Program-made: the position numbers
Shown here: positions 26,701-32,700 of the stretch, piece after piece
How positions within the stretch are numbered: position 1 is the first letter of the stretch
How the letters are laid out: every line of letters starts with the position of its first letter
Origin: Escherichia coli
GTDB lineage: Bacteria; Pseudomonadota; Gammaproteobacteria; Enterobacterales; Enterobacteriaceae
Length of the DNA: 64,000 nucleotides
Assembly (NCBI RefSeq): GCF_003790525.1
Contig: NZ_CP033635.1
Strand: one strand, 5' to 3'

Positions 26701-29700
26701 AAAACCGTTCCGTTAAGCGAAGTGGTCGCCAACAACGCAGCGTCACAGCCTGTGTCTGTTCCGCAGCAAGAGCAGCACACCGCGCAATTGCCCTTTTCCG
26801 CGCTCTGGGCGTTGTTGATCGGTATTGGTATCGCCTTTACGCCATGCGTGCTGCCAATGTACCCTCTGATTTCTGGTATCGTGCTGGGCGGTAAACAGCG
26901 GCTCTCCACTGCCAGAGCATTGTTGCTGACCTTTATTTATGTGCAGGGGATGGCACTGACTTACACGGCGCTGGGTCTGGTAGTTGCCGCCGCAGGGTTA
27001 CAGTTCCAGGCGGCGCTACAGCACCCATACGTGCTCATTGGCCTCGCTATCGTCTTTACCTTGCTGGCGATGTCAATGTTTGGCTTGTTTACCCTGCAAC
27101 TCCCCTCTTCGCTGCAAACGCGCCTCACGCTGATGAGCAATCGCCAACAGGGCGGCTCACCTGGCGGTGTGTTTGTTATGGGAGCGATTGCCGGACTGAT
27201 CTGTTCACCATGCACCACCGCACCGCTTAGCGCGATTCTGTTGTATATCGCCCAAAGCGGGAACATGTGGCTGGGGGGCGGCACGCTTTATCTCTATGCG
27301 TTGGGCATGGGCCTGCCGCTGATGCTAATAACCGTCTTTGGTAACCGCCTGCTGCCGAAAAGCGGCCCGTGGATGGAACAAGTCAAAACCGCGTTTGGTT
27401 TTGTGATCCTCGCACTGCCGGTCTTCCTGCTGGAGCGAGTGATTGGTGATATATGGGGATTACGCTTGTGGTCGGCGCTTGGTGTCGCATTCTTTGGCTG
27501 GGCCTTTATCACCAGCCTACAGGCCAAACGCGGCTGGATGCGCGTGGTGCAAATAATCCTGCTGGCAGCGGCATTGGTTAGCGTGCGCCCACTTCAGGAT
27601 TGGGCATTTGGTGCGACGCATACCGTGCAAACTCAGACGCATCTCAACTTTACACAAATCAAAACGGTAGATGAGTTAAATCAGGCGCTCGTTGAAGCCA
27701 AAGGCAAACCAGTGATGTTAGATCTCTATGCCGACTGGTGCGTCGCCTGTAAAGAGTTTGAGAAATACACCTTCAGCGACCCGCAGGTGCAAAAAGCGTT
27801 AGCAGACACGGTCTTACTTCAGGCTAACGTCACTGCCAACGACGCCCAAGATGTGGCGCTGTTAAAGCATCTTAATGTCCTTGGCCTACCGACAATTCTC
27901 TTTTTTGACGGACAAGGCCAGGAGCATCCACAAGAACGCGTCACGGGCTTTATGGATGCTGAAACCTTCAGCGCACATTTGCGCGATCGCCAACCGTGAA
28001 CGACACTTGCAGTGGGAAAGACGGAGGAAAATAGCGTGCAACGTGAAGATGTACTGGGAGAAGCCCTGAAATTATTAGAATTACAAGGGATTGCCAACAC
28101 CACGCTGGAGATGGTTGCTGAACGTGTGGATTATCCACTGGACGAGCTGCGCCGCTTCTGGCCAGACAAAGAGGCAATCCTCTACGATGCGCTGCGTTAT
28201 CTTAGCCAACAGATAGATGCCTGGCGTCGTCAGCTGATGCTGGACGAAACGCAAACCGCCGAACAAAAGTTGCTGGCACGTTATCAGGCGTTATCGGAGT
28301 GCGTTAAAAACAACCGCTATCCGGGCTGTCTGTTTATCGCTGCCTGTACGTTTTATCCCGATCCTGGCCACCCTATTCATCAACTAGCCGATCAGCAAAA
28401 AAGCGCGGCCTACGATTTCACCCACGAACTGTTAACCACGCTGGAAGTTGACGATCCGGCGATGGTAGCAAAGCAGATGGAACTGGTGCTGGAAGGCTGT
28501 TTAAGCCGAATGCTGGTGAATCGTAGCCAGGCGGATGTCGACACCGCACATCGGCTGGCGGAAGATATCCTGCGCTTCGCCCGCTGCCGCCAGGGTGGCG
28601 CACTGACCTGACAGAAACACAGAAAAGAAGCGATTTGCCGCAATCTTAAGCAGTTGAATCGCTTTTACTGAAATTAGGTTGACGAGATGTGCAGATTACG
28701 GTTTAATGCGCCCCGTTGCCCGGATAGCTCAGTCGGTAGAGCAGGGGATTGAAAATCCCCGTGTCCTTGGTTCGATTCCGAGTCCGGGCACCACTTTCAC
28801 TTCCAGATTCATCTCCCGAACTCCACGAAACTCAAGTATAATCACATCGTTACAAGCAATCTGAACATCCTGAACTCCACCGAACTCTACTGAACTCTCT
28901 CTCAATCAAGCGTTCATTGGGGGCACCGGTGGGGGCTCATTGTGTTCAGTCAGTTTCAGGAGCCCCCATATGGCACTTACAGCCAGACAGGTCGAAACAG
29001 CCAGACCTAAAGAAAAAGACTATAAACTCTCTGACGAACGTGGTTTATATCTGCTGGTAAAAACCACGGGTGCCCGCTACTGGCGGCTTAAATACCGGAT
29101 AGCAGGAAAAGAGAAAAAACTGGCCCTCGGCGTCTATCCCGACGTCTCCCTTGCTGAAGCCAGAATCAAACGCGACGATGCCCGAAAAATTATCTCCGAA
29201 GGTGGCGACCCGGGCGAAAAGAAGCGAAAGGAAAAACTCACTCAGAAAATCTCTGCCACCAATACGTTCCATGCCCTTGCTACGGAATGGCATCAGCATA
29301 AATCTTTGTCATGGTCTGAAAGTTACGCCAGAAGCGTACTGGAGGCTCTGGATAAAGATATTTTCCCGTATCTGGGCAAACGAAGCGTTACTGATATCCT
29401 CCCGCTGGAAATGCTGGAAATTCTGCGCCGCATAGAAAAACGTGGCTCGCTGGAAAAACTTCGTAAGGTGCGTCAATACTGTAATCAGATTTTTCGTTAT
29501 GCCATCGCCACCGGACGAGCCACTGTCAATCCGGCATCTGAACTGACCAGTACGCTGGCGGCGCCAAAAGCTGCACATTTCCCCCACCTGAGAGCAGATG
29601 AGCTCCCTGTTTTTCTCCGGAAGCTCGCTGAATATCATGGCAGTCCTGTTACCCGCATGGCGACAAATCTGCTGCTTCTGACAGGCCTCAGAACGATTGA

Positions 29701-32700
29701 ACTACGGTCCGCTGAATGGTCAGAAATTGATTTTGATAATGCCCTGTGGACAATCCCTGAAAGCCGCATGAAAATGCGACGTAAACATGTCGTACCACTG
29801 TCACGACAGGCCACTGACATTCTGCTGCAGCTCAAAACTTTCTCCGGACAATACCGGCTGGTTTTCCCGGGACGTTGTGATATCAACAAGCCAATGAGCG
29901 AAGCCAGCATCAATATGGTGCTCAAACGTATCGGTTACGATGGCAGGGCAACCGGTCATGGTTTTCGTCACACCATGAGTACCATTCTGCACGAACAGGG
30001 CTTTAATTCTGCCTGGATTGAAATGCAGTTAGCTCATGTGGATAAAAATTCCATCAGGGGTACCTATAATCATGCCCTGTATCTCGATGGTCGCCGTGAA
30101 ATGATGCAATGGTACGCTGACTACATTGATTCACTTTCCATCCAGGAGAGTTAATTACACTTTGTCCTGAAATTATTCTCACAATCAATAACCTTTCCCT
30201 CTGATCTGTAAGATCAGAGGGATTCCGTTAACTTACAATAAGTGATATTGGTTGTCTGGAGATTTAGGGGGACGGTCTACTATAATAATTAGCAGGAGAT
30301 AATATGTCACTTAAGGCGATTGCCACTGCACTCGGAGTTTCTGTCACCACTGTCAGTCGGGCTCTTGGAGGCTATGCAGATGTGTCAGCTTCCACCCGTG
30401 CACGGGTGGAAGCTGAAGCTCGTCGACGCGGTTACCGTCCTAATACTCAGGCAAGAAGACTCAAAACCGGTAAAACCGATGCTGTCGGTCTGGTTTATCC
30501 TGGACGTGATGTGCCATTTAACAGTGGTGTTTTTATGGATATGGTCAGTTGCATCAGCCGGGAACTTGCTCACCATGATATTGACTTACTACTGATAGCT
30601 GATGATGAGCATGCCGATTGCCACAGCTATATGCGGCTTGTTGAAAGTCGCAGGGTTGATGCTCTCATCATTGCACACACTCTGGATGACGATCCCCGTA
30701 TCACACACCTTCATAAAGCAGGTATTCCATTTCTGGCTCTTGGTCGGGTACCATCTGGTCTGCCCTGTGCGTGGTTTGACTTTGATAATCATGCCGGGAC
30801 TGGACAGGCAACCCAGAAACTGATTGCTTTGGGACATAAACGTATTGCATTGTTGAGTGAAGACACTTCACATAGCTATGTTGTTGCAAGACGTCAGGGA
30901 TGGCTTGATGCACTGAATGAGCATGAACTGGAAGATACATGGCTGCGGCTGGTTTCTCCCACACGGCGAGCAGGATATCAGGCCGTGATGGAGTTAATGT
31001 CACTACCGATACCACCAACAGCTATTATTACTGACAATGACCTGAGTGGAGATGGTGCTGCCATGGCACTGCAGTTGAGCGGTCGTCTTTCAGGAAAAGA
31101 TGCGGTATCTCTGGTTGTATATGATGGTTTGCCACAGGACAGTATTATTGAGCTGGATGTGGCTGCAGTTATTCAGTCAACACGAAGCCTCGTTGGTCGC
31201 CAGATTTCCGAGATGATATATCAGATAATTACTGATTCATCATCAAAACCACTACAGGTTGTCTGGAACCCGGTATTTTATCCGGGAAAGACGATTCATC
31301 CTCCTTGCTCCTGATTTTTTTATCCAGCTCACATATCCGAAACGTTTTGGTTGATACCCGAAACGTTTCGGATCAACAGTAAGGCATCCCTGAGAAAGGA
31401 GAATGTCTTATGGTTTCAAAGTACTGCAGACTGAGCAGTCCTCGCTCTGATTTAATTATTAAAACCCGTCCACATGCAGAAATTATCTGGTGGGGCTCTG
31501 CACTGAAACATTTCTCACCGGATGACTGTGCCAGCCTGGAAAGACCGGTTGCGAATGGTCGTCTGGATATTGATACGCCACTAACACTGATGGCTGAAAA
31601 TGCCCTGGGACTTTTTAGCTCTCCGGGACTGGAAGGACACAGGAATGGGCTGGATGCATCTCCTGTTTTTTATACAGTTGACGTGGAACATACCGAAAAC
31701 ACTCTGAGACTTACCAGTGAAGATTCGGTAGCCGGCCTGCGTCTGGTCAGCGAGCTGGTGATGACGCCATCAGGAATTCTGAAAGTTCGTCATGCACTGA
31801 CCAACCTCAGAGAGGGGGACTGGCAGATAAATCGTTTCGCCATCACTTTACCTTTAGCGGAACGTGCGGAAGAAGTCATGGCTTTTCACGGACGCTGGAC
31901 TCGTGAATTTCAGCCGCACAGGGTACGTCTCACTCATGATGCTTTTGTTCTGGAAAATCGCAGAGGGCGGACATCTCATGAGCATTTTCCGGCGCTGATT
32001 GTCGGCACGCCAGGCTTCTCGGAACAACAGGGAGAGGTGTGGGCTGTGCATCTGGGGTGGAGTGGAAATCACCGCATGAGATGTGAGGCAAAAACTGACG
32101 GCAGGCGTTACGTTCAGGCTGAGGCTCTGTGGATGCCGGGTGAGAAGGCTCTCAGGAAGAATGAAACCCTGTACACCCCGTGGCTATATGCCTGCCACTC
32201 TGCGGATGGCCTGAATGGAATGAGTCAGCAATACCATCGTTTTTTGCGTGATGAAATTATCCGTTTCCCTGAGCAAAAACCCCGCCCTGTACATCTCAAT
32301 ACCTGGGAAGGTATTTATTTCAATCACAATCCTGATTACATCATGCAGATGGCTGAGCGTGCAGCAGCACTGGGCGTTGAACGTTTCATTATTGATGATG
32401 GCTGGTTTAAAGGACGTAACGATGACCGCGCGGCTCTGGGCGACTGGTATACCGATGAACAGAAATACCCGAACGGGCTGATGCCGGTTATTAAACATGT
32501 GAAATCTCTCGGTATGGAATTTGGCATATGGGTTGAGCCGGAAATGATTAACCCGGATTCTGACCTGTTTCGTCTTCATCCTGACTGGGTATTGTCAATG
32601 CCTGGATATTCCCAGCCAACCGGAAGATATCAGTATGTTCTTAACCTGAATATTCCAGAGGCCTTTGCTTACATTTATGAACGTTTCTTATGGTTACTGG

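What the first reader, a model, noticed from the sequence alone, without database searches (positions are those of the whole stretch)
28718..30154. Island boundary at the 3' end of tRNA-Phe with an intact P4-type integrase
The conserved core ends at yjdC/pheU, and an integrase begins 176 nt after the tRNA and reads away from it, which is the classic tRNA-integrated island architecture. The 150 nt between them contain short repeats (gaactccac / gaactctac / gaactctctc) that could be arm-type integrase binding sites.
Basis: partly seen in the sequence, partly recalled or inferred. Interest (0 to 1): 0.5.

Follow-up and report, generated by a model that had tools for sequence, protein, structure and literature searches.

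The report
Genomic island junction at tRNA-Phe pheU

Summary
tRNA-Phe(GAA) is at 28718-28793. An intact 394-aa integrase gene (28970-30154) starts exactly 176 nt later and reads away from it. The context dsbD-yjdC identifies the tRNA as pheU.

Similarity to 5425 of 5426 complete E. coli genomes stops at the tRNA 3' end. K-12 has cadC there instead. Only 196 genomes carry this integrase at pheU and 334 carry it at pheV. In strain CM2 (99.99% identical over 38 kb) the island is about 82 kb. It ends in a perfect 19-bp repeat of the pheU 3' end, followed by K-12-like sequence. attR lies outside the window.

The GAACTC repeats are real and sit in 10-nt register. All four matches in the 64-kb window fall in this gap. 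Their assignment as arm-type sites is probably wrong. They occupy the positions of the five mapped TorI (excisionase) sites in KplE1 attL, whose integrase is 46% identical. The annotated P4 arm repeats (TTGGGGGCAT) correspond instead to TGGGGGC at 28918 and 28930 and its inverted copy abutting the ATG. This layout recurs in 29 of 35 non-redundant related loci.

Verdict: an ordinary, already known kind of element, low interest, with a modest refinement of the site assignment.

The parts
28036..28611 (+). yjdC/dicD, the last conserved core gene before the tRNA
   Evidence: RefSeq annotation of CM2 and K-12 transferred by alignment.
28718..28793 (+). tRNA-Phe(GAA), pheU
   Evidence: ARAGORN. The flanking genes dsbD-yjdC identify it as pheU.
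28775..28793 (+). attL core: 19 bp ATTCCGAGTCCGGGCACCA, repeated at the far end of the island (attR, outside the window)
   Evidence: A perfect copy lies about 82 kb downstream in CM2, followed by the K-12-like pheU terminator, an int remnant and cadC. The attR junction is complete in 167 genomes.
28794..28803 (+). CTTTCACTTC, the first island bases; possibly the island-side half of the core-type site (inferred)
   Evidence: Invariant in all nine enterobacterial tRNA-Phe-linked relatives whose integrases are 70-80% identical.
28807..28835 (+). Repeat block 1: ATTCAT, GAACTCCAC, GAAACTCAA. Predicted excisionase (RDF) sites.
   Evidence: It occupies the position of TorI block I1;2 of KplE1. Lag-10 autocorrelation across 35 loci gives z = 15.9.
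28837..28842 (+). TATAAT, 44 nt after the tRNA end. Function open: a -10 element or part of an IHF-type bend site.
   Evidence: Conserved in all Phe-linked relatives. TAnA[AC]T is present at +41 to +44 in 16 of 35 loci, including P4 (shuffles: mean 2.3, max 7). The consensus promoter scan called no full promoter.
28862..28900 (+). Predicted excisionase (RDF) sites.
   Evidence: It lies at -98 to -70 from the ATG, against -93 to -66 for TorI block I3;4;5 in KplE1. Lag-10 z = 14.1 and lag-20 z = 10.0 across 35 loci.
28904..28910 (+). AATCAAG, at the place where KplE1 and several relatives have the -35 hexamer TTGACA
   Evidence: Alignments of the gaps. The -35 of PintS was mapped in KplE1 (PMC2951348).
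28918..28936 (+). Two direct TGGGGGC repeats 12 nt apart. Predicted Int arm-type (P') sites.
   Evidence: Same motif, spacing and distance from the ATG as the annotated P4 'attP arm sequence repeat' TTGGGGGCAT.
28962..28968 (-). Inverted copy of TGGGGGC, ending 1 nt before the int ATG and overlapping the Shine-Dalgarno region. Predicted Int arm-type site.
   Evidence: The direct-direct-inverted layout is found with an exact 6-mer in 29 of 35 non-redundant loci (shuffles: mean 0.09, max 2).
28970..30154 (+). Intact P4/IntS-family tyrosine integrase, 394 aa
   Evidence: Pfam Arm-DNA-bind_3, Phage_int_M and Phage_integrase. 42% identical to P4 Int and 46% to KplE1 IntS over the full length. R241, H330, R333, H356 and Y366 are conserved in all, or in all but one, of 72 relatives.
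30304..64000 (.). Island cargo; the island runs past the end of the window. It holds a raf-type operon (30304-37895), IS fragments, a phosphoethanolamine transferase, candidate defence genes and a type I R-M system.
   Evidence: K-12 sequence downstream of pheU is absent from the window.

Best explanation
The region is attL, the left junction of a mosaic genomic island inserted into the 3' end of pheU. The island is about 82 kb in the near-identical strain CM2. The window holds its first 35 kb. It was inserted by site-specific recombination catalysed by the adjacent P4/IntS-family tyrosine integrase, and the crossover region is the last 19 bp of the tRNA gene. The 176-nt gap is the P' arm of the attachment site and also the integrase's own control region. 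Predicted consequences are that Int bound at the arm sites represses its own promoter, and that an AlpA/Vis-family protein encoded further inside the island binds the phased repeats, bends the arm for excision and also lowers int expression. Shown here: the boundary, the identity of the tRNA, the intact integrase, the direct repeat in proxy genomes, occupancy of both pheU and pheV, and the conserved layout. Inferred: which protein binds which repeat, autoregulation, and present-day mobility.
For: Boundary and variability: 196 of 5426 genomes carry this int at pheU; 334 at pheV. The cargo is 100% identical at pheV in strain W2-5. attR: a perfect 19-bp repeat followed by K-12-like sequence in CM2, and a complete junction in 167 genomes. 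Integrase. Spacing: most of the 60 tRNA-linked relatives have a same-strand tRNA 160-177 nt upstream, whatever the tRNA (Phe, Asn, Arg, SeC, Thr, Gly, Ser, Leu, Ala). Arm sites: the P4 record annotates TTGGGGGCAT repeats at -51, -39 and (inverted) -6 from the conserved int start; the window has TGGGGGC at -52, -40 and inverted at -7. The direct-direct-inverted layout occurs in 29 of 35 loci against 0.09 in shuffles. CM2 attR carries TGGGGGC and TGGTGGC 12 nt apart, 78 nt before the core, against 77 nt in P4. RDF sites: KplE1 has five TorI sites in blocks of two and three, the second with a 10-nt period at -93 to -66, and IntS arm sites near the -10; both proteins repress PintS (PMC2951348). 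The 10-nt period is family-wide (z = 14-16). An AlpA-family 78-aa protein, 36% identical to P4 Vis over 47 aa, is encoded in the CM2 island. Autorepression is also shown for PAI I536 IntI (PMC7286903).
Against: No binding, transcription or excision data exist for this element. The site assignments rest on positional homology to systems whose integrases are only 42-46% identical and whose motifs have different sequences (GTTCG against GAACTC; TAAA against GGGGGC). I take the P4 arm repeats to be a sequence-derived annotation rather than footprinted sites. The window has a poor -10 (CACCGG) where P4 has CATAAT, and the promoter scan called nothing in the gap. The conserved TATAAT at 28837 is unexplained. 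attR and the AlpA-like gene are outside the window and were seen only in proxy genomes. No AlpA-like gene is in the window. The island is IS-ridden, and no conjugation genes are annotated in the parts of CM2 that I inspected, so it may no longer move by itself.
Confidence: 0.85

Rival explanations
1. The GAACTC 10-nt repeats are arm-type binding sites for the N-terminal domain of the integrase. They would be analogous to the three adjacent P'1-P'3 sites of phage lambda.
For: They are tandem direct repeats in the P' arm between the core and int. The integrase has an Arm-DNA-bind_3 domain. The repeat sequence changes along with the integrase subfamily across loci.
Against: In KplE1, the closest mapped relative, the equivalent two blocks are TorI sites, and the IntS arm sites lie nearer the ATG. 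The P4 record annotates the GGGGGC-type repeats as the arm repeats, not the phased RTCC-type repeats that occupy the GAACTC position. TGGGGGC-type repeats occur on both sides of the core, at attL in the window and at attR in CM2, as expected of arm sites. GAACTC is absent from the 300 nt before attR.
Confidence: 0.15
2. The TGGGGGCTC ... GAGCCCCCA inverted repeat (28930-28968) acts as an mRNA hairpin that hides the ribosome-binding site of int. This would be translational control rather than protein-binding DNA.
For: There is a perfect 9-bp stem that overlaps the GGAG before the ATG. The two arms change together across subfamilies (GGGGGC/GCCCCC, TGTATAG/CTATACA, ACGGTAT/ATACCGT, GATGGTA/TACCATC). 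For P4, post-transcriptional control of int by Vis has been proposed (cited in PMC2951348).
Against: The fold is not exceptional: z = -1.74, and 9 of 200 shuffles fold as well. A hairpin does not need the second direct copy, nor the copies on the attR arm. In KplE1 the mapped transcription start is 28-29 nt before the ATG, downstream of the direct copies, so the 5' arm would not be transcribed from that promoter. Co-variation is equally expected for sites recognised by a co-evolving protein.
Confidence: 0.1
3. The junction is a fixed, immobile relic. The island's presence at pheU in some strains and pheV in others would come from homologous recombination of large chromosome segments or between resident islands, not from integrase activity.
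For: The island carries many IS fragments and a second integrase fragment. No conjugation genes are annotated in the CM2 island regions I inspected. Published GI-pheV islands are described as mosaic and often stabilised by loss of attR (PMC11537424).
Against: The integrase is full-length with its catalytic residues intact. The direct repeat is perfect. Arm-type repeats are present on both arms, and an AlpA-family gene is present. The same cargo, 100% identical, sits next to different core genes at pheU and pheV, with homology breaking exactly at the tRNA end or the repeat.
Confidence: 0.25

Closest known systems
GI-pheV / GI-pheU islands of E. coli carrying intP4 alleles (PMC11537424; also PMC6174562)
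   Same: A P4-like integrase sits immediately 3' of a tRNA-Phe gene. The island is a mosaic of modules separated by IS elements. Size is tens of kb (mean 75 kb when attR is present). It is flanked by a 19-bp or 23-bp repeat of the tRNA 3' end. The distal end carries the yee/CP4-44-like module (YfjI, antirestriction, RadC, CbtA/CbeA), seen in CM2.
   Different: The cargo differs. Next to int is a raf-type raffinose operon, followed by defence-type genes, rather than the pap/sat/iuc, fec or LEE modules described. Raffinose is not mentioned in that paper. Here the island is at pheU, although the identical island is commoner at pheV. I did not determine which intP4 allele this is.
KplE1 (CPS-53) / Sf6 / HK620 IntS-TorI recombination module at argW
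   Same: The integrase is 46% identical over its full length. The tRNA and int have the same orientation with a 161-nt gap. There are two blocks of phased repeats (2 + 3), then a -35, then direct and inverted repeats that reach the ATG. IntS and TorI both repress PintS.
   Different: The motifs differ (CAGTTCGC and GGGTAAAAA in KplE1; GAACTCYAC and TGGGGGC here). The tRNA target differs. KplE1 is a defective prophage, not a metabolic/defence island. Binding is proven there and only inferred here.
Satellite phage P4 Int / Vis / attP
   Same: The integrase is 42% identical. The arm repeat motif is nearly the same (TTGGGGGCAT against TGGGGGC), at the same offsets from the int start and from the core on both arms. 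Phased repeats and a TAAAAT element lie at the same places. A Vis/AlpA-family protein is present.
   Different: P4 targets leuX and is an 11.6-kb replicating satellite. This element is about 82 kb, and no replication or helper-exploitation genes are annotated in the parts I inspected.
PAI I536 integrase IntI at selC (PMC7286903)
   Same: A P4-type island integrase that strongly represses its own promoter, with an IHF site in the promoter region.
   Different: The tRNA and the island differ. I did not compare sequences directly.

Membership tests
P4-family (P4/IntS-like) tyrosine integrases | N-terminal arm-type DNA-binding domain (Arm-DNA-bind_3/DUF4102) plus a central SAM-like domain | tested here: met
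   Pfam PF13356 at residues 3-88 (E 1.7e-26) and PF22022 at 100-193 (E 2.5e-30). PDB matches to CP4-like and CPS-53 integrase domains.
P4-family (P4/IntS-like) tyrosine integrases | C-terminal catalytic domain with the Arg-His-x-x-Arg-His ... Tyr residues | tested here: met
   PF00589 at 207-370. R241, R333, H356 and Y366 are invariant, and H330 is present in 71 of 72 aligned relatives including P4 Int and IntS. The catalytic lysine could not be placed with certainty: K272 aligns poorly, although K268 and K272 are both present.
P4-family (P4/IntS-like) tyrosine integrases | Full-length sequence similarity to P4 Int | tested here: met
   42% identity, E 8e-108, residues 1-387. NCBIfam PRK09692 scores 309 bits, below its curated cut-off of 434, so it is not that model's own subfamily.
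P4-family (P4/IntS-like) tyrosine integrases | Gene next to the 3' end of a tRNA gene, same orientation, with the attachment core inside the tRNA | tested here: met
   Of 75 relatives examined, 60 have a same-strand tRNA upstream, most of them 160-177 nt away.
tRNA-integrated genomic island (GI-pheU/pheV type) | Present in some and absent from other genomes of the species, with the break exactly at the tRNA 3' end | tested here: met
   196 of 5426 genomes carry it at pheU. All the others break at window 28793 or 28799, and K-12 has cadC next.
tRNA-integrated genomic island (GI-pheU/pheV type) | Flanking direct repeat of the tRNA 3' end (attL/attR) | tested here: inconclusive
   There is none inside the window, because the island extends past base 64000. 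The feature is met in the proxy strain CM2, which has a perfect 19-bp repeat, and in 167 genomes with the full attR junction.
tRNA-integrated genomic island (GI-pheU/pheV type) | Atypical composition and mobility genes | tested here: met
   GC falls to 32-41% in several segments against about 52% in the core. IS1, IS3 and other transposase fragments are present.
tRNA-integrated genomic island (GI-pheU/pheV type) | Excision or integration activity | not testable with these tools
   This needs PCR or read-level evidence. The only indirect hint is the identical island at pheU and pheV.
Arm-type integrase binding sites (claim made for the GAACTC repeats) | Repeats on both arms of attP, at the positions of known or annotated arm sites in related systems | tested here: not met
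   GAACTC repeats are found only in attL and coincide with the TorI positions of KplE1. The TGGGGGC repeats meet this feature instead.
Arm-type integrase binding sites (claim made for the GAACTC repeats) | Bound by the integrase N-terminal domain | not testable with these tools
   This requires EMSA or footprinting.

The most novel reading that the evidence does not exclude
The 160-177-nt tRNA-to-int gap of P4/IntS-family elements follows one fixed layout across at least nine tRNA targets and 43-80% integrase identity. The layout is two blocks of 10-nt-phased repeats, then two direct and one inverted arm repeat ending at the start codon. Both motifs co-vary with the integrase subfamily. If this has not been described systematically, it would allow Int arm-site and excisionase specificity to be read directly from sequence for hundreds of islands. 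It would also predict which islands can cross-mobilise or cross-repress each other. The identical island at pheU and pheV would be one such active element.
Probability: 0.2. Interest if true: 0.35.

Novelty: already known. Interest (0 to 1): 0.15.

Why it matters
It matters mainly as correct annotation. It marks where the E. coli core genome stops and about 82 kb of accessory DNA begins. That DNA carries raffinose use, a divergent phosphoethanolamine transferase, restriction and candidate anti-phage genes, and in some strains CTX-M-14 and other resistance genes. It also shows that the element has all the sequence parts needed for excision. The refinement of which repeats are integrase sites and which are excisionase sites gives concrete targets for anyone wanting to test or block mobility of pheU/pheV islands. 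No new principle is involved.

Tried and rejected
1. I searched the window for a second copy of the pheU 3' end (23-mer, up to 3 mismatches). There is none. The reason is that the island runs past the window end; K-12 sequence beyond pheU is absent from the window.

2. The sigma-70 promoter and terminator consensus scan of 28600-29100 found nothing. The promoter position is therefore inferred only by homology.

3. RNA folding of 28912-28990 gives a hairpin over the ribosome-binding site, but z is only -1.74. I kept this as a minor rival.

4. I looked for an AlpA/Vis-like gene inside the window by tblastn and found no significant hit. The candidate lies about 26 kb beyond the window end in CM2.

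5. My first translation used 28971 as the start and was out of frame. I corrected it to 28970.

6. Literature searches for a described raffinose island at pheU or pheV found none. One paper refers to the raf operon only as plasmid-borne.

7. I considered the TATAAT at 28837 as the int promoter -10. It is conserved, but there is no acceptable -35, and the mapped KplE1 promoter lies much closer to the ATG. I left it open, with an IHF-type bend site as the alternative.

8. A chance or low-complexity origin for the repeats is rejected by the family-wide 10-nt periodicity.

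
Full report
**1. What is there**

ARAGORN finds a single tRNA in the window, tRNA-Phe(GAA), at 28718-28793 on the + strand. The next long ORF on the same strand has its conserved start ATG at 28970 and its stop at 30154, giving 394 aa. The genes before the tRNA are dsbD and yjdC/dicD, as in the RefSeq annotation of E. coli CM2 and K-12. The tRNA is therefore pheU.

**2. The boundary is real**

A 3.5-kb query across the junction matches 5425 of 5426 complete E. coli genomes. [quoted passage not shown] A junction-specific query (yjdC-pheU-int 5' part) is covered to at least 80% in only 196 genomes.

In K-12, pheU is followed by its terminator, a short integrase pseudogene remnant and cadC. 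None of that is in the window.

**3. The far end of the island**

No second copy of the tRNA 3' end exists in the window, because the island continues past base 64000. Strain CM2 is 99.99% identical to window 8000-46272. It differs by an insertion of about 4.8 kb at window 46272 that includes ISEcp1 and blaCTX-M-14.

- In CM2 the island runs about 82 kb and ends with ...CAGTTTC-ATTCCGAGTCCGGGCACCA. This is a perfect 19-bp repeat of window 28775-28793.
- The repeat is followed at once by the same AATTCATATAAACGGACCTCC... terminator, int remnant and cadC that follow pheU in K-12.
- This attR junction is complete in 167 genomes. In the other listed genomes the match starts or stops at or near the repeat, or (two island-side matches) runs up to about 130 nt beyond it.
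- Nineteen-bp and 23-bp repeats of this kind are the published hallmark of GI-pheV islands (PMC11537424).

**4. The same island sits at either tRNA-Phe gene**

Window 39001-64000 is 100% identical to many genomes. In strain W2-5 the identical int-raf-... array follows yqgA-pheV rather than yjdC-pheU. The pheV-int junction is found in 334 genomes, against 196 for pheU. The two tRNA genes are identical, so one integrase serving both sites is the simplest reading. Transfer by homologous recombination cannot be excluded.

**5. The integrase**

- Pfam finds Arm-DNA-bind_3 (3-88), Phage_int_M (100-193) and Phage_integrase (207-370).
- PDB sequence matches are to domains of CP4-like and CPS-53 integrases.
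- It is 42% identical to P4 Int (E 8e-108) and 46% to KplE1 IntS over its full length.
- In an alignment of 72 relatives, R241, R333, H356 and Y366 are invariant and H330 is present in 71.
- The catalytic lysine lies in a poorly aligned hairpin and could not be placed with certainty.
- The NCBIfam model PRK09692 scores below its cut-off, so I do not assign it to that particular subfamily.

"Intact P4-type integrase" is supported.

**6. The repeats**

GAACTCYMY occurs four times in the 64-kb window on both strands, and all four are in this gap. Three are in exact 10-nt register at 28872, 28882 and 28892, preceded by a weaker GAACATCCT at 28862. A first block holds GAACTCCAC and GAAACTCAA at 28818-28835.

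**7. What the repeats most likely are**

I fetched 80 loci encoding relatives of the integrase (43-80% identical) from one-genome-per-species contigs.

- Of 75 loci examined, 60 have a same-strand tRNA upstream. Most lie 160-177 nt away, although the tRNA varies: Phe, Asn, Arg, SeC, Thr, Gly, Ser, Leu, Ala.
- After removing near-duplicates and adding KplE1 and P4, 35 gaps of 155-182 nt remain.
- Both the first 45 nt and the stretch -112 to -58 from the ATG show a sharp autocorrelation peak at lag 10 (z = 15.9 and 14.1) and at lag 20. Lags 9 and 11 show nothing.
- In 29 of 35 gaps an exact 6-mer occurs twice directly, at about -51 and -39, and once inverted at about -7. Shuffles give a mean of 0.09 and a maximum of 2.
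- Both motifs change between integrase subfamilies while the layout stays fixed.

Two reference systems fix the meaning of the two motif classes.

*KplE1 attL.* Five TorI (excisionase) sites were mapped in two blocks: two sites 12 nt apart, and three sites 2 nt apart. The -35 box follows, and IntS arm-type sites overlap the -10 and extend toward the ATG. Both proteins repress PintS (PMC2951348). In the K-12 sequence these are CAGTTCGC/CAGTCCGC, then CAGTTCGT-ca-TGGTTCGC-tt-CAGATCGT-TGACA, then GGGTAAAAA/GGATAAAAT and inverted TTTTACCC copies reaching the ATG. Block 2 lies at -93 to -66 from the ATG. The window's GAACTC block lies at -98 to -70.

*Phage P4.* The P4 record annotates "attP arm sequence repeats" TTGGGGGCATAA, TTGGGGGCATCT and an inverted copy just before the conserved int start. 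Two more lie 77 nt before the core on the other arm. The window has TGGGGGC at 28918 and 28930 and inverted at 28962-28968. The CM2 attR has TGGGGGC and TGGTGGC 12 nt apart, 78 nt before the 19-bp core. GAACTC is absent from that arm.

This is inference from positional homology, not from binding data. Tandem, helically phased sites are what established knowledge of lambda Xis and related directionality factors would predict.

A candidate directionality factor exists. It is a 78-aa Phage_AlpA-family protein, 36% identical to P4 Vis over 47 aa, encoded in the CM2 island about 26 kb beyond the window's end. None is inside the window.

**8. Regulation**

Because the promoter of int must lie inside attL, Int (and the excisionase) bound there should repress it. 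This has been shown for IntS, IntC, IntL, IntF and P4 Int (PMC2951348) and for PAI I536 IntI (PMC7286903).

In the window the -10 position between the two arm repeats is a poor match (CACCGG, where P4 has CATAAT). The consensus scan calls no promoter. A perfectly conserved TATAAT at 28837-28842 remains unexplained. It may be a second promoter element or part of an IHF-type bend site.

An mRNA hairpin formed by the inverted repeat is possible but not statistically notable (z = -1.74). It also would not explain the extra direct copy or the attR copies.

**9. Comparison and novelty**

The element belongs to the published class of E. coli GI-pheV/GI-pheU islands with intP4 alleles, mosaic modules and 19/23-bp repeats (PMC11537424; PMC6174562). 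Its recombination module matches the KplE1 and P4 paradigms.

The specific raf-bearing cargo was not found described in the searched literature. It is, however, present and annotated in hundreds of RefSeq genomes: at least 270 carry int plus the first raf genes.

Nothing here is surprising to a specialist. The only added value is the corrected site assignment and the quantified, family-wide layout of attL. I score interest low.

Noticed in passing
window 30304-37895: A complete raf-type operon lies directly after int: LacI-family regulator, 708-aa alpha-galactosidase, oligosaccharide MFS permease, GH32 invertase and carbohydrate porin. On plasmid NZ_CP085064.1 the same operon is preceded by only the 3' 760 nt of this integrase gene (98.3% identity). 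This suggests the 'plasmid-borne' raf region and the chromosomal island share an origin.
   Followed up: partly
window 40338-42011 (-): A 557-aa phosphoethanolamine transferase well below every NCBIfam cut-off (best 163 bits against 500; MCR models 38-67 bits against 1075-1250). It is a divergent EptA/CptA-like enzyme of unknown substrate. Published pheU/pheV/selC insertions are also reported always to carry such a gene.
   Followed up: partly
window 42664-46306 (-): Three co-oriented genes: a WYL-domain regulator (45410-46306), a PDC-M09A-like protein (44282-45361) and a PDC-M40B-like 523-aa protein that RefSeq calls 'ATP--cob(I)alamin adenosyltransferase' (42664-44235). Together they look like a candidate anti-phage system. 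In strain CM2, ISEcp1 with blaCTX-M-14 is inserted right at 46272.
   Followed up: partly
window 48094-56874 (-): A low-GC (32-37%) type I restriction-modification locus (hsdR, hsdM, hsdS). It has an embedded AAA ATPase (PDC-M55A/NsnB/AriA-like, 48990-50612) and a 298-aa partner with no family match.
   Followed up: partly
window 58293-62032: A MazG-like gene, an XRE-family protein matching PD-Lambda-2_B (59026-60108), a 314-aa unknown and a thymidylate synthase-like gene. In related genomes a dGTPase-family gene begins near 63512. This may be a nucleotide-metabolism-based defence cluster.
   Followed up: no
L002 6795-7151 (K-12) and L005 31270-31630 (CM2): K-12 and most E. coli keep a short integrase pseudogene remnant between the pheU terminator and cadC. 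Just before it is a CCGAACTCAAC motif. In CM2 the remnant lies downstream of attR. The site therefore seems to have been used before, and the present island inserted ahead of the relic.
   Followed up: partly
window 28837-28842 and loci L006-L058, P4: A TATAAT/TAAAAT element at a fixed +41 to +44 nt from the tRNA end occurs in 16 of 35 related loci (shuffles: mean 2.3). It is not the mapped promoter position of KplE1 and its role is unexplained.
   Followed up: partly
loci L024-L030, L036, L040, L082 (tRNA-SeC): A subgroup of selC-linked relatives has a longer gap of about 295-299 nt. An extra 135 nt or so is inserted after the direct arm repeats, and it holds a further GGGGGT copy and a long A/T-rich palindrome-like stretch.
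   Followed up: no
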